Origin: Neocallimastix sp. 'constans'
Lineage: Eukaryota
DNA: 64,000 nucleotides
Direction: 5' to 3'
NCBI GenBank assembly: GCA_050613775.1
Contig: JBODTK010000117.1
Coordinates: 310,001-374,000 of the forward strand
Shown here piece by piece: positions 1,656-23,591 of this stretch (its first letter is position 1; every line of letters starts with the position of its first letter). Position numbers and translations under genes: made by a program. Below the pieces are notes generated by a model. The model was not told the origin of the DNA. It saw nothing but the letters and a program-made list of their open reading frames with translations, and ran no database searches.

Positions 1656-2400
1656 ACACCATCAATAATATATATATCAATTCCTTTACCAGCAGAACTT
1701 GGATAATAATAATTATTATCATATGGATGTGATGAATTTAAAAAATACTTATCTGGGACATTATTAATAATGAACTATTACTAAGACTGAAATCAAATTT
1801 ATTTTCTTGAATACTGACTTCCTTCCATTTAGTTTCTTTTATGATATTCGTTTTTATCATAATATTTGTTAGAATAATGATTTTTAAATATTGTAGATAT
1901 AGTACAAGTAATAATATTTGGTAAATTTTCAATCTCATTAATTATTCTTTCTGGATATAGATAAGCAATAATAACGTAATAGTCTAATATAGGTCATATA
2001 TGTCTTATTAATTTTGATTCAAAAAGAATTAATTCATAATCATCATAATTATCCTCTTTAATAGAATTTAATGATATTGAATATAAATATTTTTGATTTC
2101 TATTATAGTTAACGAACGAAATTTTAGATTTATTATTTATGCGTTACTTTAGATTAGAAAAAAAAAAGTTAATTCTTCTATTTTTTTATCACTTCCGCAG
2201 GCGTTTTATTTTCAGAAATAATATTATAAATTTCATTCATACTATCATTAACGAAATTATCAATTTTTTTTTTTTAATTTTTTTATTAACTTTATCGTAT
2301 TCCCCAAATTCAGAATTCCCTTTAATAAATATGAGGTAAAATTGATTTATAACTCGTACACTTTGAATAATAATTATTATTAATAATATTTGAATTAGGT
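1656..2400 (-). pseudogene. Subtilisin-like S8 serine protease pseudogene (prodomain to first catalytic Asp only)
   Basis: Minus strand reads IKETKWKEVSIQENKFDFSLSNSSLLIMSQ and then PYDNNYYYPSSAGKGIDIYIIDG, the G.G(I/V)D(I/V)Y(I/V)ID motif of the S8 catalytic Asp. Upstream fragments (IDNFVNDSMNEIYNIISEN, FESKLIRHI*PILDYY) are broken by stops and frameshifts. His and Ser motifs are absent. 5' boundary approximate. Confidence 0.75.
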
Positions 2401-3058
2401 AATATTTCATTTATTTTTGTATCTTTGTTATGACTACTATTGATATTTTGTTTTATTTTATATTATTTTATTTATTAATATTTTATTTGATAGTATTTTA
2501 TTTATAATATTTTTAATAAATTTTTATATTTTATATTATATTAATTTATTATATTTTTTTTATTTAATAATATTTTATTTTTATAATATTTCTTTTTTTT
2601 TTTTTTTTTTTATTTTTATTTTTAATTAAAATATTTTATTTTATAATATATATATATATATATATATATTATAAATCTTTTAGAATTAAAATTTTCATAT
2701 ATTCTGTATATAAATCTATATAAATTATTTATTAAAAAGTAAATCTACAATATTGGACATATCATAATAATATATATTAAAATTATATATATTATGATAT
2801 GAATTGTGTCTGTATGACTAAATTTACTTTTCTTTAATTTTTATTTAAATATTTAATAATAAAGTTTTATAGAAATAATAAAACAAAATAAATAGTGAAA
2901 TAATAAAAATCATGTAAAGTATTAATAAAAAATAAAAAAAATAAAATAGAATAAAATAGAATAGAATAAAAATGTGTAATTATATTAAGTTATAATAAAA
3001 TCTATATTTGTAATATTCAAAAAATATTATATTTAATAATAAATTATTTATAAATCAA

Positions 3059-3203
3059 ATTAAAGTTCACATAATATATTTAAAATTTTAAAGTTTTATT
3101 TATTAATATAAATAAAGTTCTAAAATACTCAATGGATCATTAAACATTTTTACTTAATTTTTATTTTTTAAAAAAATATGTTGATAAATAGTATTGAAAT
3201 ATA

Positions 3204-3241
<38 letters not shown>

Positions 3242-6200
3242 AAATATATAAAAAATGTTTATTTTTTTTTTTAATTTTACTTTATAAATATTTGTAAATA
3301 TTTGTAATATGTTACACAAACTTTTAATAAATTTTATTATTTATTTAATAAGGTTTAGATGTACGAATATTATTGTCATATATGCAAAACTAAAGGTCAC
3401 TCTACTGATCATTGTAAATATAATCTTTTAATTAGAGAAAATAATAAATCAGATGATAATAATAAAAATTATAAAAATAATAATAATAAAAATAAAAATT
3501 ATTATAAAGGATATAATAACAAAAGTAATTATTACTCTGGAAATACTATTAATAACAACAATGATAAATCTAATAATAATAACAATAATTTTTTTGAAAA
3601 TAATAATGAAAATGAAGATGAAGTATACTTTGATTTTACAGGAAATATTTTAGTAATTCAAAATTGTAATTATACAACAATAAATAATAATAATAATTCC
3701 ACACATTGGATGATTAATAGTAGTACTGGTATCAACTTAACTAATAACATCAATAATTTAAACAATTTAAATAAAATAAATAATAAAAATATTATTTATC
3801 CAAATGGTGATTTAGACAAAGTCGAAAATGTAGGTACTTACAATGGTAAATTTAAAAATAAAGATTTTATATTATCAAATGTTTATTACGCGTCAAATAT
3901 TCAAAACAATCTAATTTCCACTCATTCAATATTAAAAAATAGATGTACTATTATAATGAAACGCATAAATAGCAAAGACCGTTTACAAATATACAAAAAT
4001 AATAATTTAATTGCAAATATTTTTGCGAACGATGAAAATTTGACTATAACTCTAGACCTGATATATTTTTGGGATATGCACCTGACTCTCTTGGCTACAA
4101 AATTTTAGATATTTCTACTAACTCTATAGTTACTTCAAGAGATGTTTATTTTATGGAAGATATGCCTGGGACTATAAATAGTACATTCTTTTGTGACAAA
4201 TATATTGATTCTATTATTAATTTTAAGGATTCTTTAATTGAGGGGGAAAGTATTAATGATAATAATAATATTCATTCACAATTAAATAATCCTTTAAATA
4301 ATAATAATAATAATAATAATAATAATTATAATTATAATAATAAATATAATAATAATAATTATGATAATAACAAAGATATTTATAATAATGACAACATTAA
4401 TACTTGTGATAATTACTAAGATATTTATAATAATGACAATAATAATAATAGTAATAAAATTATTAATATTAATAATGAAACTAAAATAGAAGAAAATGAA
4501 TATGATAGTGAATCTGATAATGAATTTTTAAATGAAAGAAAAACTTAAATAAGCAAGAAAAGATCACATAGCAATAATTCAGATGATTCAGATGAAGAAA
4601 ATTTAACTTTCAGAAAAGAAAAATTACAATCAGAAAGTAATAAAAGATTTAAAATTTTAAATATTAAAACAAACGTCCCAACAACGTATCAACAAGCTAT
4701 TAATTCACCAGAAAGTGAAGAATGGAAAGAAGTAATAGATGACGAATTAAAAAATATGAACACAACAATGTTATGAAAGTGGTAAAAAAACATACCAGCT
4801 GATGTAAATATAATCGGTACTAAATGGGTCTTTGCCGAAAAGGATAATAAGAAGAAAAAGGCAAGACTAGTGGCTCTTGGTTGTCAGCAAGTTGCTGGAG
4901 AAGATTTTATAGAGACAAACTCCATAACAGTCCAAGCAGATAGTCTAAGACTTACGATCGCTATTGCATCAAAGTTCAACTAGGATATGAAGCAATTGGA
5001 TTTAAAAGCTGCTTACTTGAATACAGATTTGGAAGAAAAGATTTATACAAAGATTCCTTATGGTGATAAAAATTTTAATACTAATAAATTCTGGATACTT
5101 TAAAAAATTCTTTATGGTTAAAAACAAGCTGGAAGAATGTGGTATAATGAAATATCACATTACTTAGTAAGTATAGGTCTTAAAAAATACAAAACTGACA
5201 AATGTCTCTTTGGGAAAATATAATAAAAATAATAAATTAACATGTTTACTAACATTATATGTAGATGATATTTTAATAACAGAAATTAAAAATGAAATAA
5301 ACTATACTGTAAATAAATTAAAAGATAAATATAAAATTTCTAAAGATTCTAATGCAATTAAAATAATAGGTATAAAATATTTATAAAACAAGTGATGGTT
5401 GTAAAATAAATCAGATAGTTTATATTAATAAAATAATAGAAAAATATGATATGAAGAAAATAAAACAAATAAAAACACCGTGCAGGAAAATTACGGAATA
5501 TGAAAGAAATAATTCAATTTTAATAGATCCAAAAAAAAATAAATCTTTACTTGGTGCGTTACTATATATCGCTGTAAAGTCAAGGCCTGATATAATGTTT
5601 TCTGTAAGTAAAACCTCAAGAATACATGAAAATCCAACAGAAGCTGATTATAAAAATTTAATGAATATGTTACAATATTTAAAAGGTACAAAAAATAAAT
5701 TTATATATTATAATAAAAATAATAAATTTATCGGATACTCAGATTCAGATTTTGCTAACGATGAAAAGACGAGAAAATCTACAAGTGGATATATATTTTT
5801 ACTTGGAAAAAGCCCTATTTCATGGAAATCTCTGTTTCAGAAAAGCGTAACTTTATCTACTGCTGAAGCTGAATTTGTTAGTTTAACTGAATGTACTAAA
5901 CAAGCTTTATGGTTCAAAAATTTATTTAAGGAAATATTTAATCAAGATATAAAATTTAAAATTATGGTAGATAACAAAGCATGCATTGCAATTGCTCAAG
6001 ATACAAATTCTAAAGGAAGAAGTAAGCATATAGACTTAAGATATAAATTTGTTCAAGAAGAAATTATGAAAAACGAAATTGAATTAGAATACATTAATAC
6101 TGAAAACATGTTAGCTTATCCATTAACTAAAAGTATCGCAGGAGTAAAATGACAAAAAATACAAATTTAATTTTCAAAGAATAATATTTCTTTAATTGTA

Positions 6201-6470
6201 TATAGTTTTAAAAAAAAAAAAAAAACTTGTATATAATAATTAAAATATTATATAATACTTAATGTAGAGGAAATGTTAAAGTTCAACATAATATTTAAAC
6301 TTTTGTACATTAAAGTATTATAAATATTTATAATATTTGATTATGTAATAATTTGTATGTAAAATATAAAAAGAAAATTTTTTTATGAAATTAATATTTG
6401 GAGTCTTTTAAATACTTTATTAATTCATATAAGTTAATATATAATAAATAAATTTTAATTGAATAATAAT
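3059..6470 (+). mobile_element. Degenerate Ty1/copia LTR retrotransposon
   Basis: Gag zinc knuckle CHICKTKGHSTDHC, decayed protease motif WMINSS, integrase C-terminal remnant GYAPDSLGYKILD..TSRDVYFMED, frameshifted RT (TKWVF, KARLVA, LYVDD) and RNase H GYSDSDFA..RKSTSGY..LSTAEAEF..SKHIDLRYKF, in copia order. Purine tract GTAGAGGAAA precedes TGTTAAAGTTCAACATAATA at 6274, similar to TTAAAGTTCACATAATA near 3060. LTR limits approximate. Confidence 0.92.
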
Positions 6471-6681
6471 ACATTTTGCTGTGTACACACTATATTTTAT
6501 TTATATATATGTCCATTAAATATTTAATACTTAACTTTATGTATTTAAATTTTACATTATATAAATATTTTATTAATCTATATTATTAAATTAATAATTT
6601 ATATTTATTTATTTTTGATTCATTTCATTATTAATTTTATCTGTATTTTACATTTATATTTATTTATTTATTTTTATTTAA

Positions 6682-6838
6682 ATTTCATATATACATTTCA
6701 TTATTTATTTTATTTATATTTCATATCTACATTTCATTATTTGTTTTATTTATATTTCATATCTACATTTCATTATTTGTTTTATTTATATTTCATATCT
6801 ACATTTCATTATTTGTCTTATTTATATTTCATATATAC
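6682..6838. repeat. 36-bp minisatellite, ~4 copies
   Basis: Unit ATTTCATATCTACATTTCATTATTTGTTTTATTTAT repeated in tandem. Confidence 0.9.
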
Positions 6839-7439
6839 TTTTTTTTTTTTTTGTTTCATTATATTAATATTTTAGCTATTTATACTATTCAATTATATTT
6901 ATTATTTTTCTATATTTTAAATTTATATTTACAATTAATAATTATTTCATTAAGTATCTATCTAGTTAAATATTTATAATATAACTATGTATCTATTTGG
7001 TTAAATATTTATATACATATTAATATATCTATTTAGTTATATATTTATATATACTATTTATGTATATATTTAATTATATACTTTTGAATATTTTTTTTAT
7101 ATATATTATTTTTATTATTTAATATAAATGTATAGTTTTTTTTTTTTTTTTTTTTTTATAATTATAAAATATCTTATATATTTATTTAATATAAATTTAT
7201 TATTATTATTATAATTTAATTTAAATGGGTTTCCATAATATTAAAGTAGAGTATTCTAACATTTAATATGATATGAAGATAACACAAAAAAATAAAATAT
7301 TATTTATAGTCTATTCATTATTATAGCGATTAAATTTTGTTTTAATTAATTTATTTATTCATTGTAATAATTTAAATATATTTTTATATATGAAAATTTA
7401 TTTAAAATAAAATTGAAAAGAATTTAATTTATCATATAT

Positions 7440-9290
7440 ATATTACATTACTTTGTTTATTAAATACTTACTAATTTTGACAATATTTGCTTTATAACGA
7501 TTGGAATGCAAAGTGCTTTTAAGCTTTTTCAAAGCTTCGCATAATTTATGATACTGAGTAAATTGATCTAAATATGCATCCATTGAAAGGCAATCTGAGA
7601 AAGGTTTAATATTTTCATATGCAAAATGTTTGGCAATTGAAATCTTCTTTATATACTCTAGGCAGTAGAAAGCAGGACCTTTAAATTTAGAGGGAATAAA
7701 AGCTTTAATTTCTTTACCAACACTGATTGAAGTATTAATAAATTATTAAACCATATCATCTGCTCATATTTCATCAAATTTGGATTCAAGATTACTTGCT
7801 AAAACAGAAAAATAATTATGAGACAGTATATTTGTATTTTAAGTATTACAAATATGTTTAGACTATTTGAAAGTTTTCTTAAGTTTATTAAAACCATCTG
7901 AAAGATTTTTATTGCAAGATAAGAAAATAAGATAATGATCAGAAATATCATTTACAAATGAGCAAGCAGAAGATAAATATACATGAAGAATCATAGCTTT
8001 ATTATAGATAATATGGTCGATACATGAAGATTTTGGAACCTTTAGAATAATAATAATAATACTACTCTAAGTAAGATTAGCAACAGTCCAATCAGGGAAT
8101 ATTTTGAAAATATACTTCTTAGGTTTTTCAAAGGACATATTAAAATCACCTAAAAAAACTACAGGTGAATTTTCCTTATTATAACTACTTCACCATTTCT
8201 CCATTTCAGAACTATAAATGAGCTTCAGGCCATCTATGTTGAGGAAAGTAGATATTTCCAATAGAACATTTTTGATTCCAACCATTCATACTCCAGCTAG
8301 AGCATAAATTGAAGAAAGAAGTGCTAGAATAAAGATGATATGAATAGAAATCTCTGGGAATACCAAAAAACGATTTAATTTTTCTCTTGATTTTTTTAAT
8401 TTTTTAACTTTATTATAATTGGATTTGCGGTCATTAGAATTAGAATAACCTTCACATTCTTTATAGTTAATTTTAACAGACAATTGTAAAGTTTTTTTTA
8501 CTGACCAATATTTGAATTTATGAATGAATATCATATAGAATTTCTTGAATACACATCGGTATTGTCGGATGCCATGTTAAAAGTTTAAATAATATAGAGT
8601 TGAGTTCATAGTACACAATAATTGTAAGATATCTAGAATAATAATACTGTATTATTTGAAATATTTTAAAGTAAGAATTCATATAAAGTAAAAGAATAAA
8701 GATAATAAAATATTAACATAATAATCAGTAAAGTAGAAGAAAGGAAAGATAAATATTCAATTCATTCATAAAGAGAAGAAGAAAGTAAAAGGAAAAAAAT
8801 AAATCAATAAAAAAAGAAAATGAAGGATGAAGGAATAGAATGAAATAGAATAAAAAGAAAAAAGGAAAAAAAGTTATACTTACCTGGCTCAGACAAAACG
8901 ATAAAATATATATATATAAAAGGTTAAAATGAAATATAAAGTATATAAAAATATTAAATATAAAAGTATATATAAATATAGATATATATTAAAAAAATAA
9001 TAAAAAACAAAAGATAAAAGAAGTAAAAAAGTTAGAAAAAAAAATTAAATAGTTCCAAGATCCTTTATGATAAAAAACTAAAAATAAAAAAAAAACTTTG
9101 ATTAAAATAGAAATAAAAATGAAATGAAATAGGTAAATTAGATTTCTAAACTCCTACAAACCGATCATAAATATTAATATTATATATGAACTAGTATTCC
9201 CTGAACCAAGGGAAATACTGATAGTAATACCCCCTCAGAGACCCCACTTCTGGCGATACCCTCCTCAGGGTGAGTCTCTGACATATAATT
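7440..9290 (-). mobile_element. Decayed 5' part of an APE-type LINE (copy A)
   Basis: Minus-strand fragments NLCSSWSMNG, IGNIYFPQ, GDFNMS, SCIDHII and DHYLIFLSC match the endonuclease motifs of the LINE at 15345-16208. IFIHKFKYWSVKK matches IFIHDLQSWSVSK of that copy. Many frameshifts and no RT. The 5' limit is inferred from the structured GC island at 9190-9285. Confidence 0.8.
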
Positions 9291-9299
9291 CTTAATTTT

Positions 9300-10050
9300 C
9301 TTTTTTTATAGTCACAATTATTGCGAACTTTAGTCTTTATTCATTTATTAATTTATTAATTACACTAATATTTTTAATTTTAATAAAAAAAAAATAAAAA
9401 AACGTAGAATTAATAAAATAAATAAATATTATTTGTCCAATTAGAACATAATAATATTTAAAGTAGTAACGTGAAATAAAAAAAAGTAATATTCAAAAAT
9501 AAAGTGTATAAATAAATTCAGATAAAAGCACATATGTAACGAACCTCATTTCCTTATGATTTAGGGTTTGAATTGACTATTTTAAAAGAAATTATTGTCT
9601 TCTCCTTCAGAGGCATTGGCCCTCTGCTAGCCTGTCTTACTGCATTTTCAGCGTTGACACTCCTAGTTAGTTTGCGCTTATACTTTCGGAATAGTAACCC
9701 TTGCCTTGTACTAGCTCGAGGCATAATTTCTGTTACTTTATATGAGTAAAGTTAATTCCTCTTGCAGGCGATTTATTATACATAAATCGAGTACACCCCT
9801 GCTCGGGGTACTATTTCTACTATTATTAACAATATTAATTCTATTGTTAATATTATTAATATTATATACTTCGTTACTACTATCAGAATCAAAACTTAGT
9901 TCTATATTATTCATATCTGTGATAACGGTGTCTACATTACTATTAGATATTGGACATCAGAATCACAGAAAGCTGTAATTAGTACACCTGATATAGGTTA
10001 TTCCTTTTCCATCAACCCTCCATGGACCTGGAAAAAACAGTCCACATCAT
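9300..10050 (-). mobile_element. Composite non-autonomous LINE derivative, copy 1
   Basis: T-run (poly(A) on minus), then the LINE 3' end shared with 10052-10470, a unique ~70-bp segment, an Asn/Ser-rich LINE segment and the CATCAGAATCACAGAAAGCT module. Closely similar to 17430-18118. Confidence 0.8.
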
Positions 10051-10051
10051 T

Positions 10052-11150
10052 GTTTTTTTTTTTATAGCTGCAATTATTGCGAACTTTAATCTTTATTTAT
10101 TTATTCTTATATAAAATACATGATTACTTTTAATTTTAATAAAAAATAAAAAAACACAGAATTAATAAAATAAATAAATATTATTTGTCCAATTAGAACA
10201 TAATAATATTTAAAGTAGTAACGTGAAATAAAAAAAAAGTAATATTCAAAAATAAAGTGTATAAATAAATTCAGATAAAAGCACATATGTAATGAACCTC
10301 ATTTCCTTATGGTTTGAATTGACTATTTTAAAAGAAATTATTGTCTTCTCCTTCAGAGGCATTGGCCCTCTGCTAGCCTGTCTTACTGCATTTTCAGCGT
10401 TGACACTCCTAGTTAGGTTGCGTTTATACCGTAGGAATAGTAATCCTTGTCGAGTACTAACCCGAGGCATAATATCTTTAAAGAGAGTCGCAGATCGCAC
10501 CAAGAATGGTGTTTTTGAATAATCACCAGAAATAATTTGGTTCTTAAACAAAATGTTCCATTTCTTTTAATAATTTATATCAATAATATCTGCATCTCTT
10601 CCACCAAAAAGGAAGTTATACAATCGGTCCCACGTCATATATATATTTACACACTCATTATAAAGAAAATTACTTAAATTAACACGATTTTCACCAATTG
10701 AACTATTCACTACATTAGTAGTAATGATATTATTATTTTCACTATCACTAATATTATTATTTCTATTTTCATTATCACTAATATTATTATTTCTATTTTC
10801 ACTATCACTAGTTCTACTATTATTAACAATATTATTTCTATTGTTATTAATATTAATATTAAAAACTTAATTACAACTATCAGAATCTGTACTTGATTTT
10901 ATATTATTCATATCTGTGACAATAGTGTCTATATCGCCATTTGATATTGGACAATATTTAGAAATTATATAAAATTTTTCATAAAGCAATTCAATATCCA
11001 TAAAATATTTCATTCGAAATTCAGGGAAAAGATAGCATTTAGAAAGCCATTGTTCCAATCGAGGATTACTATTTTTTTCTATAACAACAAGGACACCTTT
11101 CCAGACAATCTTATTATTGATAAGAGATATACCACGATAGTTATTACAAT
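10052..11150 (-). mobile_element. LINE 3' remnant with internal deletion
   Basis: Poly(A) end at ~10053-10063, C-terminal coding remnants (KTPFLVRSATLFKDIMPRVSTRQGLLF; EQWLSKC) and an RT N-terminal scrap CNNYRGISLIN at ~11115-11150. Homologous to 61200-62400. Confidence 0.8.
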
Positions 11151-11179
11151 AAACAATTTAATTAATAATTACTTATAAA

Positions 11180-11385
11180 CTTTTTTTTCTAGACTAGGAA
11201 GAAAATACACTTCATGTACTTTATTAAATAGATTAAAATAGTTTTATGTATTACATTTTTAAAAAAATATATTTTATAATTTAAAGTTAAAAAAAAAATG
11301 TATGAAAAAGAATAAGTAAAATAAAAAAAAAATTTTAATTAATCATAAAAAATATTTGATTTAATAAAGAATAAAAATAAGTTCT

Positions 11386-11420
<35 letters not shown>

Positions 11421-11960
11421 CGGCGTGATGTATACTATGTACAATAGCATGATCACTAGTTGGATCTAAAATAATAAAATAAAGAAATAACATCTTTGAA
11501 ATAGATAGTGTTGTATCCACTAAACTCCCCCCTGGACCACAAAAAAGATCATCAAAAAATTGAATTACTTATTATAGGTTCTGCGTTCGGAACTGTGCTA
11601 TTAGTAAATATGTATTGATGAGAATTAACAGGACTTCTAACTGCACTATTTCTTTGCCATATCGGTACGACATCGTCACTCTTGGAAATAAAAGTGTTTT
11701 TGCCAAGCCTCTCAAAAAGTAAATCAAGAGAGCTACTGATGATTGATATTGTATTAGCAAGATATTCAGCAAGCACCACAATATACGGAATAGTAGACCC
11801 CTGTGAACTTTTTAGGAGTTGTTCACTTAAATGTCCCCGTTCCCTTGTATCGAATTGTAGTTCATCTATTTCTGAAATTCCATCAAAAAGGAATATATAA
11901 AAAACCTGTTTATGAAATTTTCGTATTCTATAATATTAGAATAAGAAGGAAGTAAGGAAA
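11180..11960 (-). mobile_element. LINE 3' end fragment (family also at 53070-54338)
   Basis: Reverse complement matches 53440-54320 (GGAACGGGGACATTTAAGTGAACAAC; GAAGTGTATT.TCTTCCTA.TCT terminus); encodes LAEYLANTISIISSSLDLLFER. Confidence 0.85.
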
Positions 11961-12101
11961 GACTATAAAAAGATTCCCATCCTTTAAATAATATCCTAAA
12001 CACAAGCTTTGGTGTGAATCAATCTTCTTTATTTCCATTTTACAATAGCTACATAAGAGTTTAAATGAAACTATAGAAAATTACATATAGAAAATAATGC
12101 T

Positions 12102-12140
<39 letters not shown>

Positions 12141-12343
12141 GATTCATTACAATGATAATATGTAGAAACTACATAATATCATTAATTATACAATTCCAAT
12201 GTTACTATATATCCAGTTTAGACAATATAAAGCATCAGGTTCACTTTCCACGGTCTTCCAGTATTCCAATTTACATTCTTCTTACTAGAAATCACTTTAG
12301 AAAGGATAACCATCGATTATCATCAGAATCACAGAAAGCTATA
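11960..12343. repeat. ~380-bp dispersed repeat, copy 1 (probable 3' end of another LINE family)
   Basis: Aligns by eye with 17070-17424 from GAC.ATAAAAAGATTCCCATC to GGATAACCATCGATTATCATCAGAATCAC, with scattered substitutions. Confidence 0.85.
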
Positions 12344-15300
12344 ATTTTTTTTTTTTTTTTTTTTTTTAGACTTAGAGAAAACTTTATTTAATTCATAATA
12401 ATTATAAAATTACTTGATTTTAATGAAAAATAACAAATAAAATACATGAAATAAAATATTATATATTATAAAATTATAAAAGTGCGTTAGAAGCAATAGC
12501 CTCTAACTTTTCCCATTCCTCGATAATAACACCACGTCCATTATTGCGAGTAATAATTTCAGTATTAGTGTTATCAATCGAATCTGTATCTGGAGGTGAA
12601 AATCCATGCCTTATCATTTCAACGTCGACGCTCTCGGCAATAGTAGATTCAACGGAATACCATTTCATCATCAAACTAAAAGATCGACAAATTAATGGTA
12701 TTACGTTTGTTAGAAACTCCGCAATCCCCACAAAATACGGAACAGTTGACGAAGTTTAACTTTGTTTAAAAATATTGTCAACTAATTGTCTTTGTTCCCC
12801 ATCATTAACTTTAATTTTTGAATATATTGAACGCCCACCAAGAAGTGCACTCAATATATAATAATAAATATTATTATCATAATCGTTTTCTGAATCTAAA
12901 GAAACATCCAAGGATTTTTGTTCAATTATCAATGCAAACTTCAAAAAGAGATCATCTAGAAAAGGTAAAGATTTATTTCTGTAATATTCCAATTCTTTAC
13001 AGGTAAAGATCCAGTGAGAAAAGCTAGGTACACTAACACCACAACAAGGGCAACATTTAGGGCAATCTTCTGAGACGATTTTTCTTTTAATGGAAATACT
13101 AATGTCGAATTTAAAACCACACCAAATTCGAGAAATCCAAAAGAATCCCAACTGATACATAGAATGTTGAAATGTTAAATTTCTGATTTCTGAAATAAAT
13201 CCAAAATCATTCTCCTTGTAAATAATTGCTTTTTTTTAGCTTTTGAGGGTTTGAAGACATCTCTTTCCCAATAAAATTTTTTTTTACTTCACTTGTTTTT
13301 TTACCATTTAATTTCTTATCCAAAGTCCTTGATTCTTTAGTCTATGAGTAATGTTATATAGTATGAATATTATTAGTGAGATGATTAATAATACATGATG
13401 AATTTTTCCATTTTCTAAAGCATCGTAATTGAGATATTGCACAGATAGCTGAAAGAGGAGGTATTTCAATTCACGAATAATGTTATAGAGACTAACAGAA
13501 GAATTATGAGATTTAAATCCATAACACCAATAAAGTCCTCTATTAAAAAATTTTTTTGAGCTTTAGAACATCTGCTCTTATTTGAACCAAAGAGAGGAGC
13601 ATAATATATAACAAGACTAAGAATAAACGAAATTAAAACATATTTCTTCAATGGGAGAGGAATAGATTTATTAATAAGAAATCGAAAGTATGAATTTAAC
13701 TTGACATTAAATTACTGTTTAATTTGGATTGTATAGGTTTCAATGATAAAGATTCATCAAAAGGAATACCATGATAAGTATAGTTGTCAGTTTTAGGTAA
13801 TTTGTTACTACCAATAAAGAAAGATGGATCTTCATAGTTTATCGGTTTAACAAAGTTAATCGGTTTTACAACAAGAGTAGCACACTTATTAATTCCAAAA
13901 GTCATTTCATTTTTAATAGCCCATTCATGAACTATATTCAAAATTTTCTTAAGAGCTTGTTTAGATGGATCAACTAAAACAATATCATCCGCAAAAAGTC
14001 CACCACAACAATATTGAGAATCTAAATATACACCATACTTATCACAATTATGCAGTACATCATTAATGAACAAATTGAATAAAATAGGAGATAGAGGGCA
14101 TCCTTGTCTAACACCACGATTAATCGAAAATTCTTCTGAGAGATTACCATTAAAAAAAGCACGAGCTTTAGAAGATAGATAAAGATTCTTTAAAAACAGA
14201 TGACATTTATCTCTAATTCCTAAGTTATATAATTTGGTCAAAATATTAAAGATAGGTACTGAATCATAGGCTTTTTTAAGATCGAGAAAAGCAAAATAAG
14301 TAAAATTTCCTTGAAATTTTCTTCTTTGACATATCTCTCTAATTGAAATATATAAACTGCATTCTTCTTTATTTCTAAATCCAAATTGTTCAGGTCTAAC
14401 AAATTTATGTTCAAGGGCATATTTAGCAATTCTATTAGTAACAATCTTTGAAATAATTTTTAAGCCAACATTAATAAGAGAAATACCACGATAATTATTA
14501 CAATCCGAAAGATCTCCTTTTTTTGTAATTGATATTATAGAAGCCGAATTCCACTCTTCAGGGAAATCACCATCCCAGATTTTATTAAATAATGAAAGTA
14601 TACATTTAGCACACTTAGAGTAGTGATCATCTGAAGAATCATCTTGATTATCGGATAAATCAGATTTACTAAAGAAGGCTTTAAAAAATTCAATCGAAAT
14701 ACCATCGGGTCCAGGAGCTTTATTATTTTTCATTTCAAGCACAGTGTTTTGGATTTCTTCCATAGTAATAGGATCATTAATATTCCAAGTAGGATTATTA
14801 TTAGGATTAGTTCCAAATAAACTTACCCAGTATTCATTATCCAAACTGTGTTGAGTAACATCAGAAGCTAGTTCACTGTAATGTTCAGCAAATCGATTTA
14901 ATTGATCCGAATGAGAGAATAAAAAGTTACCCTGCTTGTCCTTTAAAACGCTTGACGAAATAGAATTAGAGTACATAGGGTGAGATAGCTTCTTCAATTT
15001 TAACCAAGCACTCCTAGCATTTTTATTACGAAAATCATTACATGTAGATTCTATTGACTGATGAAATTGTTTTGATTTAATAGAAAACTTAATTGATCTG
15101 ACTTTACCACATATATTTTTATATTCACGAAGCAAATTTAAAAATTCATCAAGGTTTTCAAGATTAGAACCTAAAGAAAAATTTTTGATTTCATTAAATG
15201 CAACATGCTTTTCATGAGAAAGTTTCTTGATATAATAAGGGCAGTGGAAAGCTGATCCTTTAAGATCACAAGGAACTCTAGCATGAACTTTATCATCAAC

Positions 15301-17030
15301 TTTATTAGCTGTTTCTATAAATTTATTGACCATTTCATTAGAACTTAATTCTTTATTATCATCAAATCATTAAGAAGAATTGAGAAGTAGTTACTTGAGA
15401 ATATTTCATTATGCTTTTCATTACACATGCGTTGGGACCACTTGAATCTTCTAGAAGGAGTAGGAACACGAAAACCTTCTGAGTCATCTTTCTTACAGGA
15501 AAGGATAAGAGGGAAGTGGTCAGATTTATCATTGAATGTACTACAAACAGATACCTTATTAATGTATTCCTTCATTTTACAATTAAATAAAACATGATCA
15601 ATACAAGACGATCTACCATCTCGAGCCCATGTAAAATCGAGACCTGATAAGTTTTTAGTGATCCACTGATGTGATGATTTATTAAGTAAACTATCTAATT
15701 GAGATTTAGACATATTAAAGTCACCTACAAGAATAGAAAGTGTATTAGTATGTTTCTTTATCCAATTAGTAATTTCTGAAAAGGCATTCTTTCTTTCTTT
15801 CTTATAAGTGACCGTAGGAACATAAATATTACCAATAGTGCATTTAATTCCCCAAAAAGAAGTAATGTTGACAGAAATGATATACTTATATTCAAAAGGA
15901 TCAGGAGAAAATGAACAAGAACGATGTACACTTATACTAAGACCTCTCATACCGGGTATATTTGGATCAGCTTTACGTAAAATTGTATTATAGTGACAAA
16001 GAAATGGGTAATTATTTGAATGTACATTAAGATATTGGCTATTACCGACCTCTTGCAAGCAAATATAGATGGGTTTAAAAATTTCATTAAAGTATCTAAT
16101 ACCATCACGTTTTTCATCATTCCATCCATTAATGTTCCAACTGACACAAAGATTAAAGAACTGAGTAGACGGTGAGTAAATACTACTATAAAGAAAATCT
16201 TTAACCATTGATTTAGTTTCAAAAGAAGAAAATTTGTTGTTAAATTTCTTAACTTCACTGAAAGTTCAGATTTTGTTGGTTTGGATCCAATTAATTTTAT
16301 TGATTGGAAGGCAATGGGTAAGAAGAAATAAAATATTTAGGTAATAAGTGGGTTTATCATAGTTTATCCTTAAAATGAAGTAATTTTCCATATTAGGTGT
16401 GTGTTTTTTTTGTAATTCCATGAATTATTTCATTGCAATTGGAAATACTCTTACTAAGAAATTCCCAAAGTTTACTAACAGACCATGATTGAAGATCATG
16501 AATAAAGATAAGAATGAAATCTTAATTCAGAATATCGTATCTTCGAAGGCCTCGCCGCAAAAATAGGTATAGTTGCAGAATTTGAAGAAGTACTATCCAT
16601 TTCAAGAAAGCCTAAAAAAATAAAATAAAAGAAGTATAAAATAAAAAAATAATAATAATAAAAAATAGATAAAAAAATTTTTTTTTAATATATATAATAA
16701 AACAAAATAAAAATAAAAGAGAAAGTAAATTCCCTTTAAATAGTATATAAAAAAAATTGGTATTGAATATATGAAAGCTTGAAATATATATAATTGTTCT
16801 TGATGATTTAATAGTTTTTAGATTTTGTGTGTGATTGATTTTATCGGTATTGCTGATATAATATTTATAAATTTACACAAGGGTTAGAAATATATAGATA
16901 CAAGATTACTTGTATATACTATTAAAATGAATAATCGCTTCTTTTTATCTTTTGACTGATTGTAATTCATTCAATTAATAAAGCTCTTTATGAAGATAAA
17001 ATTTTTCTGTTGAATAATCATAAATTAGCT
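12344..17030 (-). mobile_element. Near full-length APE-RT non-LTR retrotransposon (copy B), frameshifted
   Basis: APE domain 15345-16208 (SWNING, CLQE, GDFN, IDH, SDH), RT 13696-15333 (KAPGPDG, NYRGISL, FLDLKKAYDSV, GVRQGCPLSP, LFADD), C-terminal Zn finger CPCCG..HWIFTC (12756-13160), 3' UTR and poly(A) at ~12344-12367. One original ORF now split by frameshifts. 5' limit approximate. Confidence 0.95.
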
Positions 17031-17069
17031 AAAAGTATATATGAAAAAGAAAAAAATATTAGTAGAGAA

Positions 17070-17424
17070 AGACCATAAAAAAGATTCCCATCAGTTAAAT
17101 AAAGTTTTAAACACATGCTTTGGAGTGAATCAATATCCTACATTTCCATTTTACAATAGCTACATGAAAGTTTAAATAATATTATAGAAAAATACATATA
17201 CAAAATAATGTTAAAATAAAAAATACAATAGATTCATTGCAATGATAATATGTAGAAACTACATGATATTATTAATTATACAACTCCAATGTTACTACAT
17301 ATCCAGTTTAAAGCAATATAAAACATCAAGTTCACTTTCTGCGGTCTTCCAGTATTCCAATTTTCTCTCTTCGTACTAGAAGCCACTTTAGAAAGGATAA
17401 CCATCGATTATCATCAGAATCACT
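17070..17424. repeat. ~360-bp dispersed repeat, copy 2
   Basis: Direct-orientation paralog of 11960-12343. Confidence 0.85.
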
Positions 17425-17429
17425 TTGTT

Positions 17430-18118
17430 TTCTTTTTTTTATAGCAGTAATTATTGCGAACTTTAATCTTTATTTATTTATTCTTATATAAAATACATGA
17501 ATACTTTTAATTTTAATAAAAAATAAAAAAACACAGAATTACTAAAATAAATAAATATTATTTGTCCAATATAAACATAATAATAAAGAAATAGTAACGT
17601 GAAATAAAAAGTAATAATCAAAAATAAGTGTATAAATAAATTCAGAAAAAAAGTTCATATGCAACGAACCTCACCTCCTTATGGATTAGGGTTTGAATTG
17701 TCTATCTGAAAAAAATTATGGTCTTCTCCTTCAGAGGCATTGGCCCTCTGCTAGCCTGTCTTACTGCATTTTCAGTGTTGACGCTCCTGGTTAGTTTGCG
17801 CTTATACTTTCGGAATAGTAACCCTTTCCGAGTACTAGCTCGAGGCATAATTTCTGTTACTTTATAAGAGTAAAGTTAATTCCTCTTGCAGGCGATTTAT
17901 TATACATAAATCGAGTACACCCCTGCTCGGAGTACTATTTCTACTATTATTAACAATATTATTTCTATTGTTAATATTATTAATATTATATACTTCGTTA
18001 CTACTATCAGAATCAGAACTTAGTTCTATATTATTCGTATCTGTGATAACGGTATCTTCATTACTATTAGATATTGGACATCAGAATCACAGAAAGCTGT
18101 AATTAGTACACCTGATAT
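17430..18118 (-). mobile_element. Composite non-autonomous LINE derivative, copy 2
   Basis: Same modules and junctions as 9300-10000, including GCAGGCGATTTATTATACATAAATCGAGTACACCCCTGCTCGG. Confidence 0.8.
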
Positions 18119-18125
18119 ATATATA

Positions 18126-18526
18126 TTTTTTTTATAGCCGCAATTATTGCGAACTTTAATCTTTATTTATTTATTCTTATATAAAATACATGAATACTTT
18201 TAATTATAATAAAAAAAATAAAAAAACACAGAATTAATATAATAAATAAAAAAATTATTTGTCCAATTGAACATAATAATAAAAGAAATGGTAAGTGAAA
18301 TAAAAAGTAATAATCAAAAATAAGTGTATAAATAAATTCAGAAAAAAAGTTCATATGCAACGAACCTCACCTCCTTATGGATTAGGGTTTGAATTGACTA
18401 TCTAAAAGAAATTATGGTCTTCTCCTTCAGAGACATTGGCCCTACTAGCCTGTCTTACTGCATTTTCAGTGTTGACGCTCCTGGTTAGTTTGCACTTATA
18501 CTTTCGGAATAGTAACCCTTGTCGAG
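18126..18526 (-). mobile_element. Truncated further copy of the same LINE 3' end
   Basis: T-run then GCAATTATTGCGAACTTTAATC...GGAATAGTAACCCTT, closely similar to 17430-17832; interrupted by the poly(A) of the next element. Confidence 0.85.
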
Positions 18527-20460
18527 TTTTTTTTTTTTTTTTTTTTTTTTTTTAACGGCAGCAAACTTGTTTCATCTTTATTAATTAAATATTTGATAAA
18601 ATACATGAAATACAATAATAAAAAAAAAAAAAATAAAAAAATAAACAAATAGATATAATACTTGCTTCATTCCAAATTCTTGAGTATATCTTCTGTAAAC
18701 AATTTAAACCAGAAGAAGAATTATTTACTGAATTTTCGTCATCCGGAGGAATTAAAGCTTTATAAAATTCAATAGGAATTCCATCCGGGCCTGAAGCTTT
18801 ATAATTTGGAGTAGCTAAAATTGCTTCTCTAATTTCTTCTATACTGATGTCTTGATTTATATCCCATTCATTGTGTCTCGTATACCTAATTGTTCCATTG
18901 GAAAATTTATTAGACCATTCTATTAATGCACTATTGATATCAGAATGGCTTGAAGCAAGTTTTTTATAGTGATTGTGCCATACTTCTAACTGTTCTTTAG
19001 TAGAAGTAGCTAGTTTACCATTTTTGTCCTTTACTGGAGAATTTGACATATTTTTAAATTTATCTACTTTTGCTGTTGTTTTAAGCCATTTCCAAGCTTT
19101 CTTAGGGTTATGAGATTTCATATATTCACATCCTGTATTGATCCAATGTTGGTATTCAGTTTTCCTATAAATATTACACATATGATGAATAATTTTGCAC
19201 ATTCTATTATATTTTTCAATTAATTCTTCAAATTCATCTAAATTATGATAAGAACCTCTTCTTTTAATGGATTTATATAATTTCATTTTGAGTTTTTGCA
19301 AATTAAATATTCTCTGCGACATATGAAAAAAAGATTTCCTAACTTCTGATATTGACGTGATATTAAGTTCCTTAGCAATATTGAATGAAGTTGAAATAAA
19401 ATTCTTAGAAATATCATCAATACTAATATTAAGATCTGGAATCACTTCCTCTAAAACACTAAAATAGTTGTTGTCAAAAATTGATTCTTTTTCATTTATA
19501 CATTTTAATCTATTCCATTTAACTGTCTTTTTAGGCAGAGAGAAAGAATTATCTGAATTAACTGATGAAAAACATTTATCTTTTATTAATAAAGGTTTAT
19601 GATCCGAAATGGGGGGAAAGTCAATAAAAGTACCATATGAAAGTAAATCTAACATATGATCATTGACAATCGCATGATCTATATCAGATTCTCTATTACC
19701 TCTACTCCATGAAATTGGGGAGCCCCATAAGGGAAGAATTTTCCAATTACTAAATTTAGAGAGCAAATTACCTAATTTCTCAGTAGGTAAATTAAAATCA
19801 CCAACCAACATTGAAGGATGAGAAGAGTGACTATTTAACCACGACAATATTTCAATTCTAGCAGCTCTAGCATGAAGGCTATGGCCACTATGAGGTACGT
19901 ACACATTACCAATAGAACATTTAATGAAATTCCAAAAATTATAAGTATACAAGGAAATAATATACTCATAAGTGTTGTTTTCAAGAGAGGCTTGACAAGA
20001 ATTATGAAACCCAATATAAAGACCTCTTTTACCGGGAATTTCATTATTAGCTTTTTTGAAGAAATGTTTGTAGTTTTTTAATGATACTCGACATGGATAT
20101 TTACTGCTAGAACCTGAACCATTTCCTGTTTCCTGAAAGCATAAGAAAAGTAGTTTGTACATTGAAATAAAGAATTCAACACTGTCTTTTTTATCAAAGT
20201 TCCATCCATTAGTATTCCAACTGACACATAAAGAAAATTCTTTAACTGTATTATTATTAATATGAGTGTTATTAATATTATTGGAATTATTATAATTGAT
20301 TGAACTGGAATTTGAATTTGAATCTGAAGTTGAACTGAATTTAAATATAAATTTGAAATTGAACTTGAACTTGAACTTGAACTTGAACTTGAACTTGAAC
20401 TTGAACTTGAACTTGAACTTGAACTTAAACTTGAACTTAAACTTGAACTTGAAAAAAAAA
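18527..20460 (-). mobile_element. APE-type LINE (copy C): open endonuclease/linker ORF, RT deleted
   Basis: ORF 18585-20162 plus in-frame upstream SWNTNGW; motifs CFQE, GDFN, IDH, SDH, KASGPDG. Ends at IWNEASIISI and jumps to a 3' UTR and poly(A) at ~18527-18553. Confidence 0.92.
20359..20452. repeat. (TTGAAC)n hexanucleotide microsatellite
   Basis: About 15 tandem units at the 5' edge of LINE copy C. Confidence 0.95.
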
Positions 20461-20589
20461 AATAAAAATAAAAATAAAAAAAAGACTCAAACTATGTAAT
20501 TTTTCACACATTATTCATTGGTGATCAGTTCCAAAGGAATTAGGAACATTTAACATAGAATTTTTATTTCATCGTCAATTACAGGAATT

Positions 20590-20661
20590 AGGGGCGTTCC
20601 GGATTTGAACCGAAGACCTATTGATCTGCAGTCAATTGCTCTACCGCTGAGCTAACACCCC
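20590..20661 (-). tRNA. tRNA-Cys (GCA), intronless
   Basis: GGGGTGTTAGCTCAGCGGTAGAGCAATTGACTGCAGATCAATAGGTCTTCGGTTCAAATCCGGAACGCCCCT folds as a cloverleaf: acceptor GGGGTGT/ACGCCCC, anticodon arm ATTGA-CTGCAGA-TCAAT, T loop TTCAAAT, U73 discriminator. Confidence 0.97.
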
Positions 20662-21443
20662 CTTTTCCTGAATTTATATATTTTACATCATTTTTCACTT
20701 TTTCATTAAAAAAAAAATTTACGAAATGCAAAGCTTTATATACTTTCGAATTAATAATAATTTTATTTATTTTTTTTTTTTTCTTTTAATATTGTTTTAT
20801 TTGCTTTTTTATTATTTTTAAGTCAAAATGAAAAAAAATTTTTTAAATTCTTTTTGTTCTAATTTTTTTTTAAATTAGAAAAAAAATTAAATTTTACTGA
20901 AGAAAAAAAATAGAAATAATTTTTTACTATTAATTATTTACTAAATTTTTTCTTTTATTAATTTATATTACATGCTTATTAATTATTAAAAAAAGATTGA
21001 ATTTTTTATATTTAATTTTTATTTATTGCTTTTATTAGGTAGTTTGAATATATATTTATGTTTTTTTTTTTATTTTGGATATAAAATTAAATAATTCATA
21101 TTTTTCCTTTAGGGAATTTCTTCTTTATTTTTTTATACTTTAAAAAAAAATTTCTTTATCAAAAAAAATACTACTTTTTATTTCTTTTATTAAATTAAAT
21201 TAACTTTTAAAAAAAATAAATTTAAATTTATATCTAATTATTTATATTTATGTACTTTTTTTTATTGCTTTTTTTTTTTAAACTATATTAATCAAAAATG
21301 ATTCATCAAAAAATAAAATATCCAACAATAAATAATTATTATAGGGTTTATAGAAATAATTCATAAATCAAATTATATTTTTTTTTGATAGATAATTAAA
21401 ATAATTTTGATTTAATCCATTATTTTTAAATTTTCTTATAATT

Positions 21444-21638
21444 TTATTGCTTTTTTGGCTTGTTTTTCATTCTTAATGGGAAGAAACAACAAGTCAATGG
21501 TGGAGAATTTTTATTTGGTTTTGATTCTTCTTTTTTGTCATTAGTTGGTGTTTTTGTGGTTTGAACACTTTCTTCTTCAGTTGTCTTTGGAACTTCTGAA
21601 GTTTGTTCTTTTTTATCTTCTTCGGGGGTACCATCTAG
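21444..21638 (-). CDS. Putative stop-codon readthrough extension of NDK (64 aa)
   Basis: In frame after TGA-CTAG: LDGTPEEDKKEQTSEVPKTTEEESVQTTKTPTNDKKEESKPNKNSPPLTCCFFPLRMKNKPKKQ then TAA (21446-21444). Coding-like composition stops at the TAA. Confidence 0.7.
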   Translation of the reverse strand, partial: LDGTPEEDKKEQTSEVPKTTEEESVQTTKTPTNDKKEESKPNKNSPPLTCCFFPLRMKNKPKKQ

Positions 21639-22266
21639 TCACTCGTAAATAATGTTATCAAGAGCACGTGGGTAATCCTTAACACCTTCTGGGAACCATA
21701 AGTTAATTTCTCTTTCGGCACTTTCAACGGAATCAGAACCGTGAACAACGTTTCTTCCAGAATCAATACCGAAATCACCACGAATGGTACCTGGTTCAGA
21801 CTTTAATGGATCAGTCTTACCGAGCATAACACGTCCGTAGGCAACAACACCCTTACCTTGCCAGACCATACCAACAACTGGACCACTTAAGATGTACTTA
21901 ACAATCTTTGGGAAGAATGGCTTACCAATGTGTTCTTCGTAGTGCTTAGTTATAAGTTCTTCATCAGCTTGGAGCATCTTAATACCAAGAAGCTTGAAAC
22001 CCTTGTTTTCAAAACGCTTAATGATTTCACCAACAAGACCACTATATTTAAATAATAATAAAAAAAAATTAATATATATTCCTAAAAAACACAATAAAAA
22101 ATTTTCTACTAAAACTTTCATTCGTAAAATTAATCAATTTAAAATTTTTTAAAAAAAAAAAAAAAAAAACACATATATATAAACGTAAATGTTTAATTAT
22201 TTCATTAAATATTTACCGGGCAACACCATCTGGCTTGACCATAATGTAAGTTCTTTCAGTAGCCAT
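21639..22266 (-). CDS. NDK1: Nucleoside diphosphate kinase (group I NDPK), 2 exons: 22266-22217, 22041-21639
   Basis: Spliced product [24 protein letters not shown]...PGTIRGDFG...[21 protein letters not shown]...IIYE with the catalytic HGSD. GT-AG intron in matching phase. Confidence 0.97.
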
Positions 22267-23591
22267 TTTAGTTATCTTTATTAATTTTATAATTTAATAA
22301 ATAAAAAAAGTTATTACTTTATATTTTTTAAAATAATCAAACAATTTATTTTTAAAGTTTATAATCTTTTTTCTTTCTTTCGTTCTTTTTTCTTTTTTAT
22401 TATTTATATATCTTTAACTTTTATTTAATAAAATCTTTATGAGAGTATAAAACTAATTATACTAATATATGTTTTATTTTTCTTATAAATAATTCCCTCC
22501 TTCTCTTACTAATTTTTTCTTATTATTAAATATTTATTTTTGTTTATTTTTATTTCTTTGATTGATATTTCATAAAAACTTATTTTCTTTCCATTCCATT
22601 TTGTTTACACTTTACTTGTTAATGAAAAATTAAATATATATATATATATAAAATTTTATATATTTACTTTTTGTTTTTATTTAAAAAAAAAAAAACTAAT
22701 TTTGATAGAATAAAAAAAAGTTCTTTTTATAAAGTTATTTTAAAATATTTTTCAATATTTATTGAAATTTGTTGTTGAAGAAGAAAATAAAAAATTAGAA
22801 AAAAGTTTTTTCTTTTATACTAAAAATTTGAATTAGTATATATGATATATAATTATAAATTATCTATTTACATTAACATTATATATGGCAATCCTTATTT
22901 AATAATAATAATATTATTATTAATAATAATTTAAATAAATTTTAATAAATTAATATTAATATTAAATATAATGGTATTTATTATAATAATTAATATTTAT
23001 TATTTCATCTTAATTAGCATAATGTATTTAATATTTGTAAACTTCTTTACTCACTCATAAATTTATCAAAGAATGTAATATTTATACATTTAAATAATAT
23101 TTAATTAATTTATTTATTTATTATATATCTTCATTTATATTAATTAAATTAAAAATTTAATAAAAAAGAATGAATGAATGAACCATTCGTTTGATAATAA
23201 ATACAATTAATATATTGTTTTATATACATTTATCAAGCATATGATTAAATCAATTATTTAAATATATTATATATAAAACATTTATATTATATATATATTT
23301 TAATATTTTAATATATGATCTATATATTCCATTATTTTGAACTATTTTTCATTTCAAATTAAAATTGGTAATAAAAATATTCTATTTTTCAATAAAATCT
23401 TGAAATAATTGAAATTATATATGTCATAATATATTAAAATATAATAATTTTAACTATTTACAAAAAAAATAAAGTTGAAATAAAAATAATAATTAAATAG
23501 TAAAAATTAAGGAACGTAGATAAATGAATATTAAGTAATATATATAAAATTAAAGTTAAATTACCATTAACTAATCATTTACAATAAGAAA

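What the first reader, a model, noticed from the sequence alone, without database searches (positions are those of the whole stretch)
21444..21641. Candidate programmed stop-codon readthrough giving NDK a 64-aa tail with a Cys-Cys plus polybasic membrane anchor
Seen: the NDPK domain ends normally (IIYE) at TGA, followed directly by CTAG and 64 more sense codons to a TAA. In this AT-rich DNA non-coding frames usually close much sooner, and the composition falls to intergenic AT levels right after the TAA. The other host genes here end in TAA (4) or TAG (1). Established: UGA-CUAG is the strongest known readthrough context (mammalian MDH1, LDHB, AQP4; UGA-CUA in fungal PGK peroxisomal isoforms). 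Inference: the tail is an acidic/Thr-rich flexible linker ending TCCFFPLRMKNKPKKQ. That is not a PTS1 or CaaX but resembles a palmitoylation plus polybasic anchor, so a minority of extended subunits could tether NDPK oligomers to membranes for local GTP supply. I know of no described readthrough NDPK isoform of this kind.
Basis: partly seen in the sequence, partly recalled or inferred. Interest (0 to 1): 0.9.

Follow-up and report, generated by a model that had tools for sequence, protein, structure and literature searches.

The report
Leaky stop gives kinase membrane tail
In anaerobic gut fungi the gene for the nucleotide-recharging enzyme NDK ends in a stop codon of the leaky type followed by a conserved in-frame tail, so ribosomes likely read through it now and then and add a tail predicted to be a lipid anchor, which would tie a share of the enzyme to membranes.

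Summary
Observation confirmed. The window holds a Neocallimastix-type NDK gene (minus strand, one intron). Its 150-aa frame ends GAG-TGA-CTAG and stays open for 64 more codons to TAA. RNA contigs from five studies carry the TGA and tail unchanged, with no splice joint or edit there. All 6 gut-fungal loci fetched (5 distinct sequences with the window) keep an invariant 21-nt context. It uses codons these genes otherwise avoid (GAG 0/52, CTA 0/45, CCC 0/35). Tails are stop-free (neutral simulation P 0.001-0.009) and their indels keep frame. All 10 gut-fungal protein clusters have a tail-bearing member. Eleven distinct tails share LDGTP, an acidic linker and P-x(2-3)-CC-[FL]?-FP plus basic residues. 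That motif resembles the palmitoylation signal of casein kinase 1 gamma. The same motif ends a gut-fungal xylose isomerase record, apparently with no stop before it. Against: tail pN/pS is only 0.83, and no readthrough product, lipidation or location has been shown. Programmed readthrough is about 0.88 likely, a lipid anchor about 0.65 given readthrough, and local GTP fuelling is a guess. New variant of a known kind.

The parts
22217..22266 (-). NDK coding exon 1 (ATG at 22266-22264)
   Evidence: spliced CDS translates to P0122 exactly
22042..22216 (-). 175-nt GT-AG intron
   Evidence: RNA joint 22041-22217 in runs X1 and X5
21642..22041 (-). NDK coding exon 2 up to the last sense codon (GAG); catalytic His117 codon at 21743-21741
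   Evidence: Pfam PF00334 E 7.7e-56
21639..21641 (-). TGA stop of the 150-aa NDK; inferred leaky stop
   Evidence: unchanged in RNA contigs of 5 studies
21624..21644 (-). 21-nt invariant stop context GAG TGA CTA GAT GGT ACC CCC; inferred extended linear readthrough signal
   Evidence: invariant in 5 of 5 distinct DNA sequences and built from otherwise unused codons; no covarying RNA structure
21447..21638 (-). 64-codon in-frame extension: LDGTP, acidic Thr-rich linker, Cys-Cys and basic end
21447..21527 (-). predicted membrane-anchor motif (CC codons 21491-21486, then FFP and a Lys/Arg-rich end; net charge +6)
   Evidence: resemblance to the CK1-gamma signal; same motif on xylose isomerase P0146
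21444..21446 (-). second stop codon TAA; GC falls to 0.12 after it

Best explanation
The single NDK mRNA makes the ordinary 150-aa enzyme and, by likely programmed readthrough of its UGA-CUAG stop, a predicted minor 215-aa form whose conserved Cys-Cys plus basic end is probably palmitoylated and would tether mixed NDK oligomers to a membrane. Shown: the gene structure, the unedited stop in RNA contigs, conservation of the stop context, the frame and the terminal motif across gut fungi, and the same motif on a second enzyme record. Inferred step 1 (about 0.88): a near-cognate tRNA decodes the UGA in a few percent of terminations. Inferred step 2 (about 0.65 given step 1): a DHHC acyltransferase S-acylates the two cysteines and the basic residues bind acidic lipids, while the 25-41-residue acidic linker acts as a spacer. 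Inferred step 3 (about 0.4 given step 2): one tailed subunit anchors a whole hexamer. At 1-5% readthrough and random assembly, 6-27% of hexamers would carry a tail, giving a membrane pool that regenerates GTP next to membrane GTPases, as NME3 does in mammals.
For: Context: 21 nt invariant in 5 of 5 distinct DNAs; GAG 0 of 52 Glu, CTA 0 of 45 Leu and CCC 0 of 35 Pro codons in the same five coding regions. UGA CU(A) alone drives readthrough in Ustilago and HeLa, about 1% for LDHB (PMC4207609); UGA CUA G gave 1.0-2.3% in HeLa reporters (PMC4359377). Frame: no stop in five tails, simulated neutral P 0.001 on the tail tree and 0.008-0.009 on the third-position tree. 24 of 26 pairwise tail gaps are multiples of three against 5 of 24 in the UTR (pairs not independent). 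Variability by codon position is 0.29, 0.17, 0.33. Breadth: 10 of 10 gut-fungal clusters have a member called through the stop, including the deepest branch P0009. Motif: 11 of 11 tails; CC lies 7-13 residues from the end in a segment of net charge +4 to +8. The CK1-gamma signal A/TKCCCFFKR is needed for membrane location (PMC7531007, PMC10166522). Xylose isomerase P0146 matches tail P0132 at 16 of 18 residues. Membrane-anchored NME3 that may recruit NME1/2 into hetero-oligomers is described (PMC8658066). Hexamer arithmetic.
Against: No ribosome or peptide data, so readthrough is unobserved. Tail pN/pS is 0.83 pooled, 0.64 around the motif and 0.89 in the linker, with 2 of 10 pairwise ratios above 1. 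Invariance of the five third positions after the stop is not significant by itself on the third-position tree (P 0.065; 0.017 on the tail tree). Database proteins with a tail are selected for having TGA and an open frame. For 3 of 14 gut-fungal rows in the tree no 3' sequence was seen. The motif has two cysteines and a proline, unlike the CK1-gamma signal, and the likeness is by eye. The longest invariant run in the alignment (29 nt) lies inside the CDS, so invariance alone is not unique. The xylose isomerase record has no DNA in hand and could be a chimera.
Confidence: 0.6

Rival explanations
1. Readthrough is real, but the tail is not a lipid anchor. The CC-FP motif binds a partner protein or a metal, acts as a redox or degradation signal, or routes the subunit to an organelle such as the hydrogenosome or flagellum.
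For: All conservation evidence shows a selected peptide, not its chemistry. The invariant FP and upstream K-P and P-S look like a linear binding motif. A xylose isomerase has no obvious need for a membrane.
Against: Two adjacent invariant cysteines beside aromatic and basic residues at the end of a flexible linker match known S-acylation sites. The end is not a PTS1 or CaaX in any of 11 tails.
Confidence: 0.26
2. The tail is reached by minor alternative splicing to the TAG at 21637-21635, for example from the phase-1 donor at 21685. That would remove a 51-nt in-frame segment holding the stop and the last 16 NDK residues.
For: Eleven phase-1 GT sites upstream would join the tail in frame, and TGAC before TAG resembles a branch point. 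Logan contigs can drop rare isoforms.
Against: No joint near the stop in 5 covering runs with depth 1,088-10,425, while side contigs of depth 5-10 were kept. Spliced contigs L001, L003, L004 and L006 keep the TGA. Ten of the 11 donors would delete His117. The Gly codon that supplies the remaining donor is absent from tail-bearing P0011 at protein level. Splicing does not explain why the stop is always TGA.
Confidence: 0.06
3. A-to-I editing turns UGA into a Trp codon in some transcripts or life stages.
For: Stop-codon editing is known in some ascomycetes (recalled). Contigs can collapse single-base variants, and the life stages sampled are unknown.
Against: No other letter at the stop in 5 covering runs. 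The context is the known ribosomal readthrough motif.
Confidence: 0.03
4. The conserved product is a small peptide started at the ATG just after CTAG, in the +1 frame, by reinitiation.
For: That ATG is invariant and opens 46 or more codons in all five sequences, with indels that keep this frame too.
Against: In the window this frame stops 9 codons earlier than in the other four. Substitutions are lowest at position 2 of the NDK frame. Conserved codons continue past the +1 stop, and changes in the motif are synonymous in the NDK frame.
Confidence: 0.02
5. The tail is untranslated or neutral, or the UGA is selenocysteine or a genome-wide Trp codon.
For: pN/pS near 0.8. Gene callers translate it with TGA=W.
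Against: Neutral simulation P 0.009 or less. Trp is TGG in all NDK regions (2 per locus) and in 12 of 12 Trp codons of 7 other long frames, which were picked as open under the standard code. Selenocysteine is reported absent from Neocallimastigomycota (PMC9457484), and Rfam finds only a tRNA in 20400-22400.
Confidence: 0.03

Closest known systems
UGA-CU(A)(G) readthrough giving peroxisomal isoforms: Ustilago Tpi1, Art1, Rpe1; human LDHB, MDH1 (PMC4207609, PMC4359377)
   Same: Same stop and 3' context, an abundant oligomeric cytosolic enzyme, and a conserved in-frame extension ending in a likely address signal.
   Different: No PTS1. The extension is long (46-70 residues as called), with a spacer and a Cys-Cys/basic motif. 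Invariance spans -3 to +15 nt rather than +3 or +4. The lineage is an anaerobic, hydrogenosome-bearing fungal phylum.
Casein kinase 1 gamma C-terminal palmitoylation signal A/TKCCCFFKR (PMC7531007, PMC10166522)
   Same: A cysteine cluster near the C-terminus, often preceded by K, followed by Phe and basic residues, on a soluble kinase.
   Different: Two cysteines rather than three, an invariant Pro, no homology shown, and encoded behind a stop rather than in the main frame.
Mammalian NME3 and red-algal DYNAMO1, membrane-associated NDKs that fuel dynamin-family GTPases (PMC8658066, PMC10822820)
   Same: A group I NDK with a proposed membrane pool in mixed oligomers.
   Different: NME3 is a separate gene with an N-terminal hydrophobic anchor. 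Here one gene would give both forms, and the anchor is C-terminal and predicted to be a lipid.

Membership tests
UGA-CU(A)(G) functional translational readthrough | UGA stop followed by CUA(G) | tested here: met
UGA-CU(A)(G) functional translational readthrough | stop and context conserved in orthologs | tested here: met
   6 of 6 gut-fungal loci, 5 distinct sequences with the window
UGA-CU(A)(G) functional translational readthrough | in-frame extension under selection | tested here: met
   no stops, frame-keeping indels, invariant motif; pN/pS only 0.83
UGA-CU(A)(G) functional translational readthrough | stop present unspliced and unedited in the mRNA | tested here: met
   dominant contigs of 5 covering runs; rare forms not excluded
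UGA-CU(A)(G) functional translational readthrough | extended protein detected | not testable with these tools
   needs ribosome profiling, mass spectrometry or a reporter
Cryptic peroxisomal (PTS1) readthrough isoforms | extension ends in an SKL-like tripeptide | tested here: not met
   ends vary (KKQ, RKQ, AKK, GKK, KSK, TEN, TEQ, TDN) across the tails; judged by eye, no predictor run
Prenylated tails (CaaX or Rab-type terminal CC) | Cys within the last four or five residues | tested here: not met
   CC is followed by 7-13 residues
CK1-gamma-type S-acylation anchor | Cys cluster followed by aromatic and basic residues near the C-terminus | tested here: met
   pattern in 11 of 11 tails against the motif quoted; two Cys, not three
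CK1-gamma-type S-acylation anchor | S-acylation and Cys-dependent membrane location | not testable with these tools
   bench test needed
Group I nucleoside diphosphate kinase | full NDK domain, catalytic His in HGSD, C-terminal YE | tested here: met
   PF00334; aligns 3-150 with human NDK A; His117
Group I nucleoside diphosphate kinase | hexamer assembly, also with extended subunits | not tested
   assumed from family knowledge
NME3-type anchored NDK | N-terminal hydrophobic anchor | tested here: not met
   no in-frame upstream ATG before a stop in the window or 6 of 6 loci
Selenoprotein | SECIS element and Sec machinery | tested here: not met
   no Rfam hit but tRNA; Sec reported absent from the phylum; machinery not searched, as no genome was held

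The most novel reading that the evidence does not exclude
Anaerobic gut fungi own a portable C-terminal lipid-anchor module (KP-x-x-x-PSKxCCFP-basic). On NDK it is gated phylum-wide by an extended 21-nt linear readthrough signal and stands in for the NME3-like N-terminal anchor seen in some other zoosporic fungi. It has also been grafted, without a stop, onto a copy of the bacteria-type xylose isomerase, so these fungi place chosen soluble enzymes on a membrane by reusing one hidden tail.
Probability: 0.25. Interest if true: 0.85.

Novelty: new variant of a known kind. Interest (0 to 1): 0.7.

Why it matters
Functional UGA-CUAG readthrough is documented mainly as a route to peroxisomes. A phylum-wide case that adds a predicted palmitoylation anchor to a core enzyme would widen what readthrough does. 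It would also show a convergent way to make an NME3-like membrane NDK from one gene. Named public records stop at residue 150, so the isoform is missing from those annotations. The invariant -3 to +15 context, built from avoided codons, is a ready natural test of whether bases beyond +4 tune readthrough. The tail is directly testable in yeast as a small membrane tag, and a tailed xylose isomerase would interest pentose-fermentation work.

Tried and rejected
No whole genome was held, so TGA-CTA could not be surveyed genome-wide and DHHC or peroxin genes could not be searched. Runs X9, X10 and X11 did not lay on the gene although listed as holders; this is no evidence either way. RNAalifold gave only a weak hairpin over the stop (-2.2 kcal/mol, 0 of 8 pairs covarying), so a downstream stimulatory structure is rejected. 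A tail profile against 1.84 billion representatives found only the NDK record P0003. Two ESM Atlas searches gave nothing usable. AlphaFold2 on 15 sequences gave mean pLDDT 57 with residues 144-215 under 50, but also 91-113, so it is only weak support for a disordered tail. A motif pattern in bacterial genomes gave 10 matches, treated as chance and not examined. The context pattern in viral contigs gave 0. The genomes behind the loci are not held. L007 (41% identity) is not a gut-fungal NDK and was dropped from all counts. L001 and L002 equal the window in the tail and were not counted as independent. The tRNA-Cys gene downstream is taken as coincidence. DNA for other chytrid NDK 3' ends and for the xylose isomerase could not be obtained.

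Full report
Locus. The window is very AT-rich eukaryotic DNA. The NDK gene lies on the minus strand: exon 1 at 22266-22217, a 175-nt intron confirmed by RNA joints, and exon 2 from 22041. The spliced CDS translates exactly to P0122, which public sources name nucleoside diphosphate kinase of Neocallimastix lanati and N. californiae. It is a full group I NDK (Pfam PF00334; aligned over residues 3-150 with human NDK A) with His117. It ends in YE like the other homologues inspected. No genome was held.

Observation. After GAG-TGA the frame runs CTA GAT GGT ACC CCC and stays open for 64 codons to TAA at 21446-21444. GC is 0.42 in the CDS, 0.33 in the tail and 0.12 after it. A frame this long has probability 2.6e-4 at UTR composition and 0.011 in shuffles of the tail. 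TGACTAG occurs once in the window.

RNA. Of 22 runs listed, 8 were laid. X1, X5, X2, X3 and X7, from five studies, each have a contig through the stop and the whole tail with zero differences, at depths 1,088-10,425. They are spliced at the known intron and show no joint or other letter near the TGA. X9, X10 and X11 did not lay on the gene. Side contigs of depth 5-10 survive in these assemblies, but contigs can still drop rare isoforms and edits. The dominant mRNA therefore carries the stop and the tail.

Orthologs. A metagenome scan gave 7 loci: six gut-fungal and one distant (L007, dropped). All six have the same arrangement. L001 and L002 match the window, leaving five distinct sequences with 84-93% CDS identity. 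Tails are 56-67 codons. In the protein collection, gene callers using TGA=W have already translated through the stop. All 10 top clusters contain such a member, and seven of these begin with a 150- or 151-aa cluster mate letter for letter, including the Anaeromyces robustus record. These records are selected for an open frame; the DNA loci are less so, as 4 of 6 search patterns came from the kinase domain. In a tree of 30 NDK domains the 14 gut-fungal rows form a 100/100 clade. Eleven have a known tail, including the deepest branch P0009, and three have no 3' sequence in hand.

Selection on the signal. The 21 nt from -3 to +15 are invariant. In the same five coding regions GAG is used for 0 of 52 other Glu codons, CTA for 0 of 45 Leu, CCC for 0 of 35 Pro and ACC for 2 of 16 Thr, yet all four stand at this site in 5 of 5. 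Shared ancestry makes these five non-independent. Third-position invariance alone gives P 0.017-0.065, and a 29-nt invariant run exists inside the CDS, so the argument rests on the rarity of the codons. No covarying RNA structure was found. UGA CU(A) is sufficient for readthrough in Ustilago and HeLa cells (PMC4207609; parts 1-2 of 5 read). UGA CUA G gave about 1-2.3% in HeLa reporters, and LDHB up to 5% in one line (PMC4359377; passages).

Selection on the tail. Under simulated neutral evolution all five tails stay stop-free with P 0.001 (tail tree) to 0.009 (third-position tree), and lower at UTR composition. In frame-blind pairwise alignments 24 of 26 tail gaps are multiples of three, against 5 of 24 in the UTR. 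Variability by codon position is 0.29, 0.17, 0.33, which fits the NDK frame and not the +1 frame that starts at the ATG after CTAG. Against this, pooled pN/pS is 0.83 in the tail (0.64 around the motif, 0.89 in the linker) versus 0.28 in the CDS, so the linker drifts almost freely. Eleven columns are invariant in nine aligned tails: LDGTP, K, P, CC, FP. All 11 distinct tails match P-x(2-3)-CC-[FL]?-FP. Linkers carry net charge -2 to -8 and the terminal segment +4 to +8, with CC 7-13 residues from the end. For P0009 and P0136 a later W was taken as a second TGA, which is an inference without DNA.

What the tail resembles. It is not a PTS1, CaaX or Rab-type end. Its closest tested look-alike is the CK1-gamma signal A/TKCCCFFKR, whose deletion moves the kinase to the cytosol (PMC7531007) and whose Cys-to-Ser change removes function in C. 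elegans (PMC10166522; passages). This is a likeness of pattern, not homology. A profile of the tails also hit P0145 and P0146. P0146 is a full xylose isomerase that matches the 437-aa solved enzyme 5nh4 over residues 1-436 and carries 46 extra residues. These end in the same motif, 16 of 18 identical to tail P0132, with no W at the junction. It is seen on 7 contigs, plus 1 for the fragment. If genuine, the motif works apart from NDK and in an ordinary frame; without DNA a chimera or another code cannot be excluded.

Mechanism. Most ribosomes stop at the UGA and release the 150-aa subunit. A few percent likely insert Trp, Cys or Arg and add the tail. The tail is probably S-acylated and, with its basic end, holds the subunit on a membrane through a flexible acidic spacer. 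With random assembly 6-27% of hexamers would carry a tail at 1-5% readthrough. The precedent is NME3, which binds membranes by an N-terminal hydrophobic peptide, may recruit NME1/2, and fuels dynamin-family GTPases (PMC8658066, PMC10822820; passages). Five named fungal or aphelid NDK records among the 120 hits listed (Synchytrium, Hyaloraphidium, Cladochytrium, Smittium, Amoeboaphelidium) have hydrophobic N-terminal extensions. The window and all six gut-fungal loci have no in-frame upstream ATG. Replacement of an N-terminal anchor by the tail is a hypothesis: most other chytrid records show no extension, and these extensions may be signal peptides. Which membrane, and which GTP user, is unknown.

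Rivals. A minor splice to the TAG after the stop is possible in frame but unseen. Ten of 11 candidate donors would delete the catalytic His. Editing is unseen. Selenocysteine is reported absent from this phylum (PMC9457484; passages), and Rfam finds only a tRNA nearby. Trp is encoded by TGG in the NDK genes. The main open rival is a real readthrough tail with a non-lipid role.

Novelty. Four full-text searches found no description: readthrough + nucleoside diphosphate kinase + stop codon + fungi, Neocallimastix + readthrough, readthrough + palmitoylation + C-terminal extension + stop codon and read-through + Piromyces + stop codon. Their few hits were judged from the listings, apart from passages of PMC10822820. 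The 7 text supplements of PMC4207609 hold no NDK. The library is open-access only, and supplements of other papers were not seen. Unchecked notes of this scan describe a readthrough CaaX tail on a fungal quinone reductase; this was not tested here and is not support. Verdict: a new variant of a known kind, interest 0.7.

Noticed in passing
proteins P0146 and P0145: A gut-fungal-type xylose isomerase record carries a 46-residue C-terminal extension ending in the same CC-FP-basic motif as the NDK tail, apparently in an open frame; possibly a membrane-tagged paralog, or a chimera.
   Followed up: partly
proteins P0014, P0016, P0043, P0079, P0094: NDK records of several early-diverging fungi have 40-45-residue hydrophobic N-terminal extensions before a second Met at the usual start, suggesting two-start, NME3-like or secreted isoforms.
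   Followed up: partly
window 20589-20662 (-): A tRNA-Cys(GCA) gene lies about 780 nt downstream of the tail; tRNA-Cys is one of the near-cognate readers of UGA (Cys insertion noted in PMC4207609). Probably coincidence.
   Followed up: no
window 21634-21494 (-): An invariant ATG directly after TGA-CTAG opens a 46-codon +1 frame, longer in relatives; judged a shadow of the tail's codon use.
   Followed up: yes
window 3359-6152 (+): Broken frames that look like a Ty1/copia-type retroelement (zinc knuckle, integrase end, reverse transcriptase to RNase H), judged by eye from translations.
   Followed up: no
window about 7000-20490: A long stretch of raised GC (0.23-0.30) with several long minus-strand frames ending just after the tRNA gene, possibly an inserted element; not identified.
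   Followed up: no
proteins P0136 and P0009: Tails called with TGA=W contain a later W that probably marks a second TGA stop; in P0136 a small indel relative to L005 shifts the end of the tail.
   Followed up: partly
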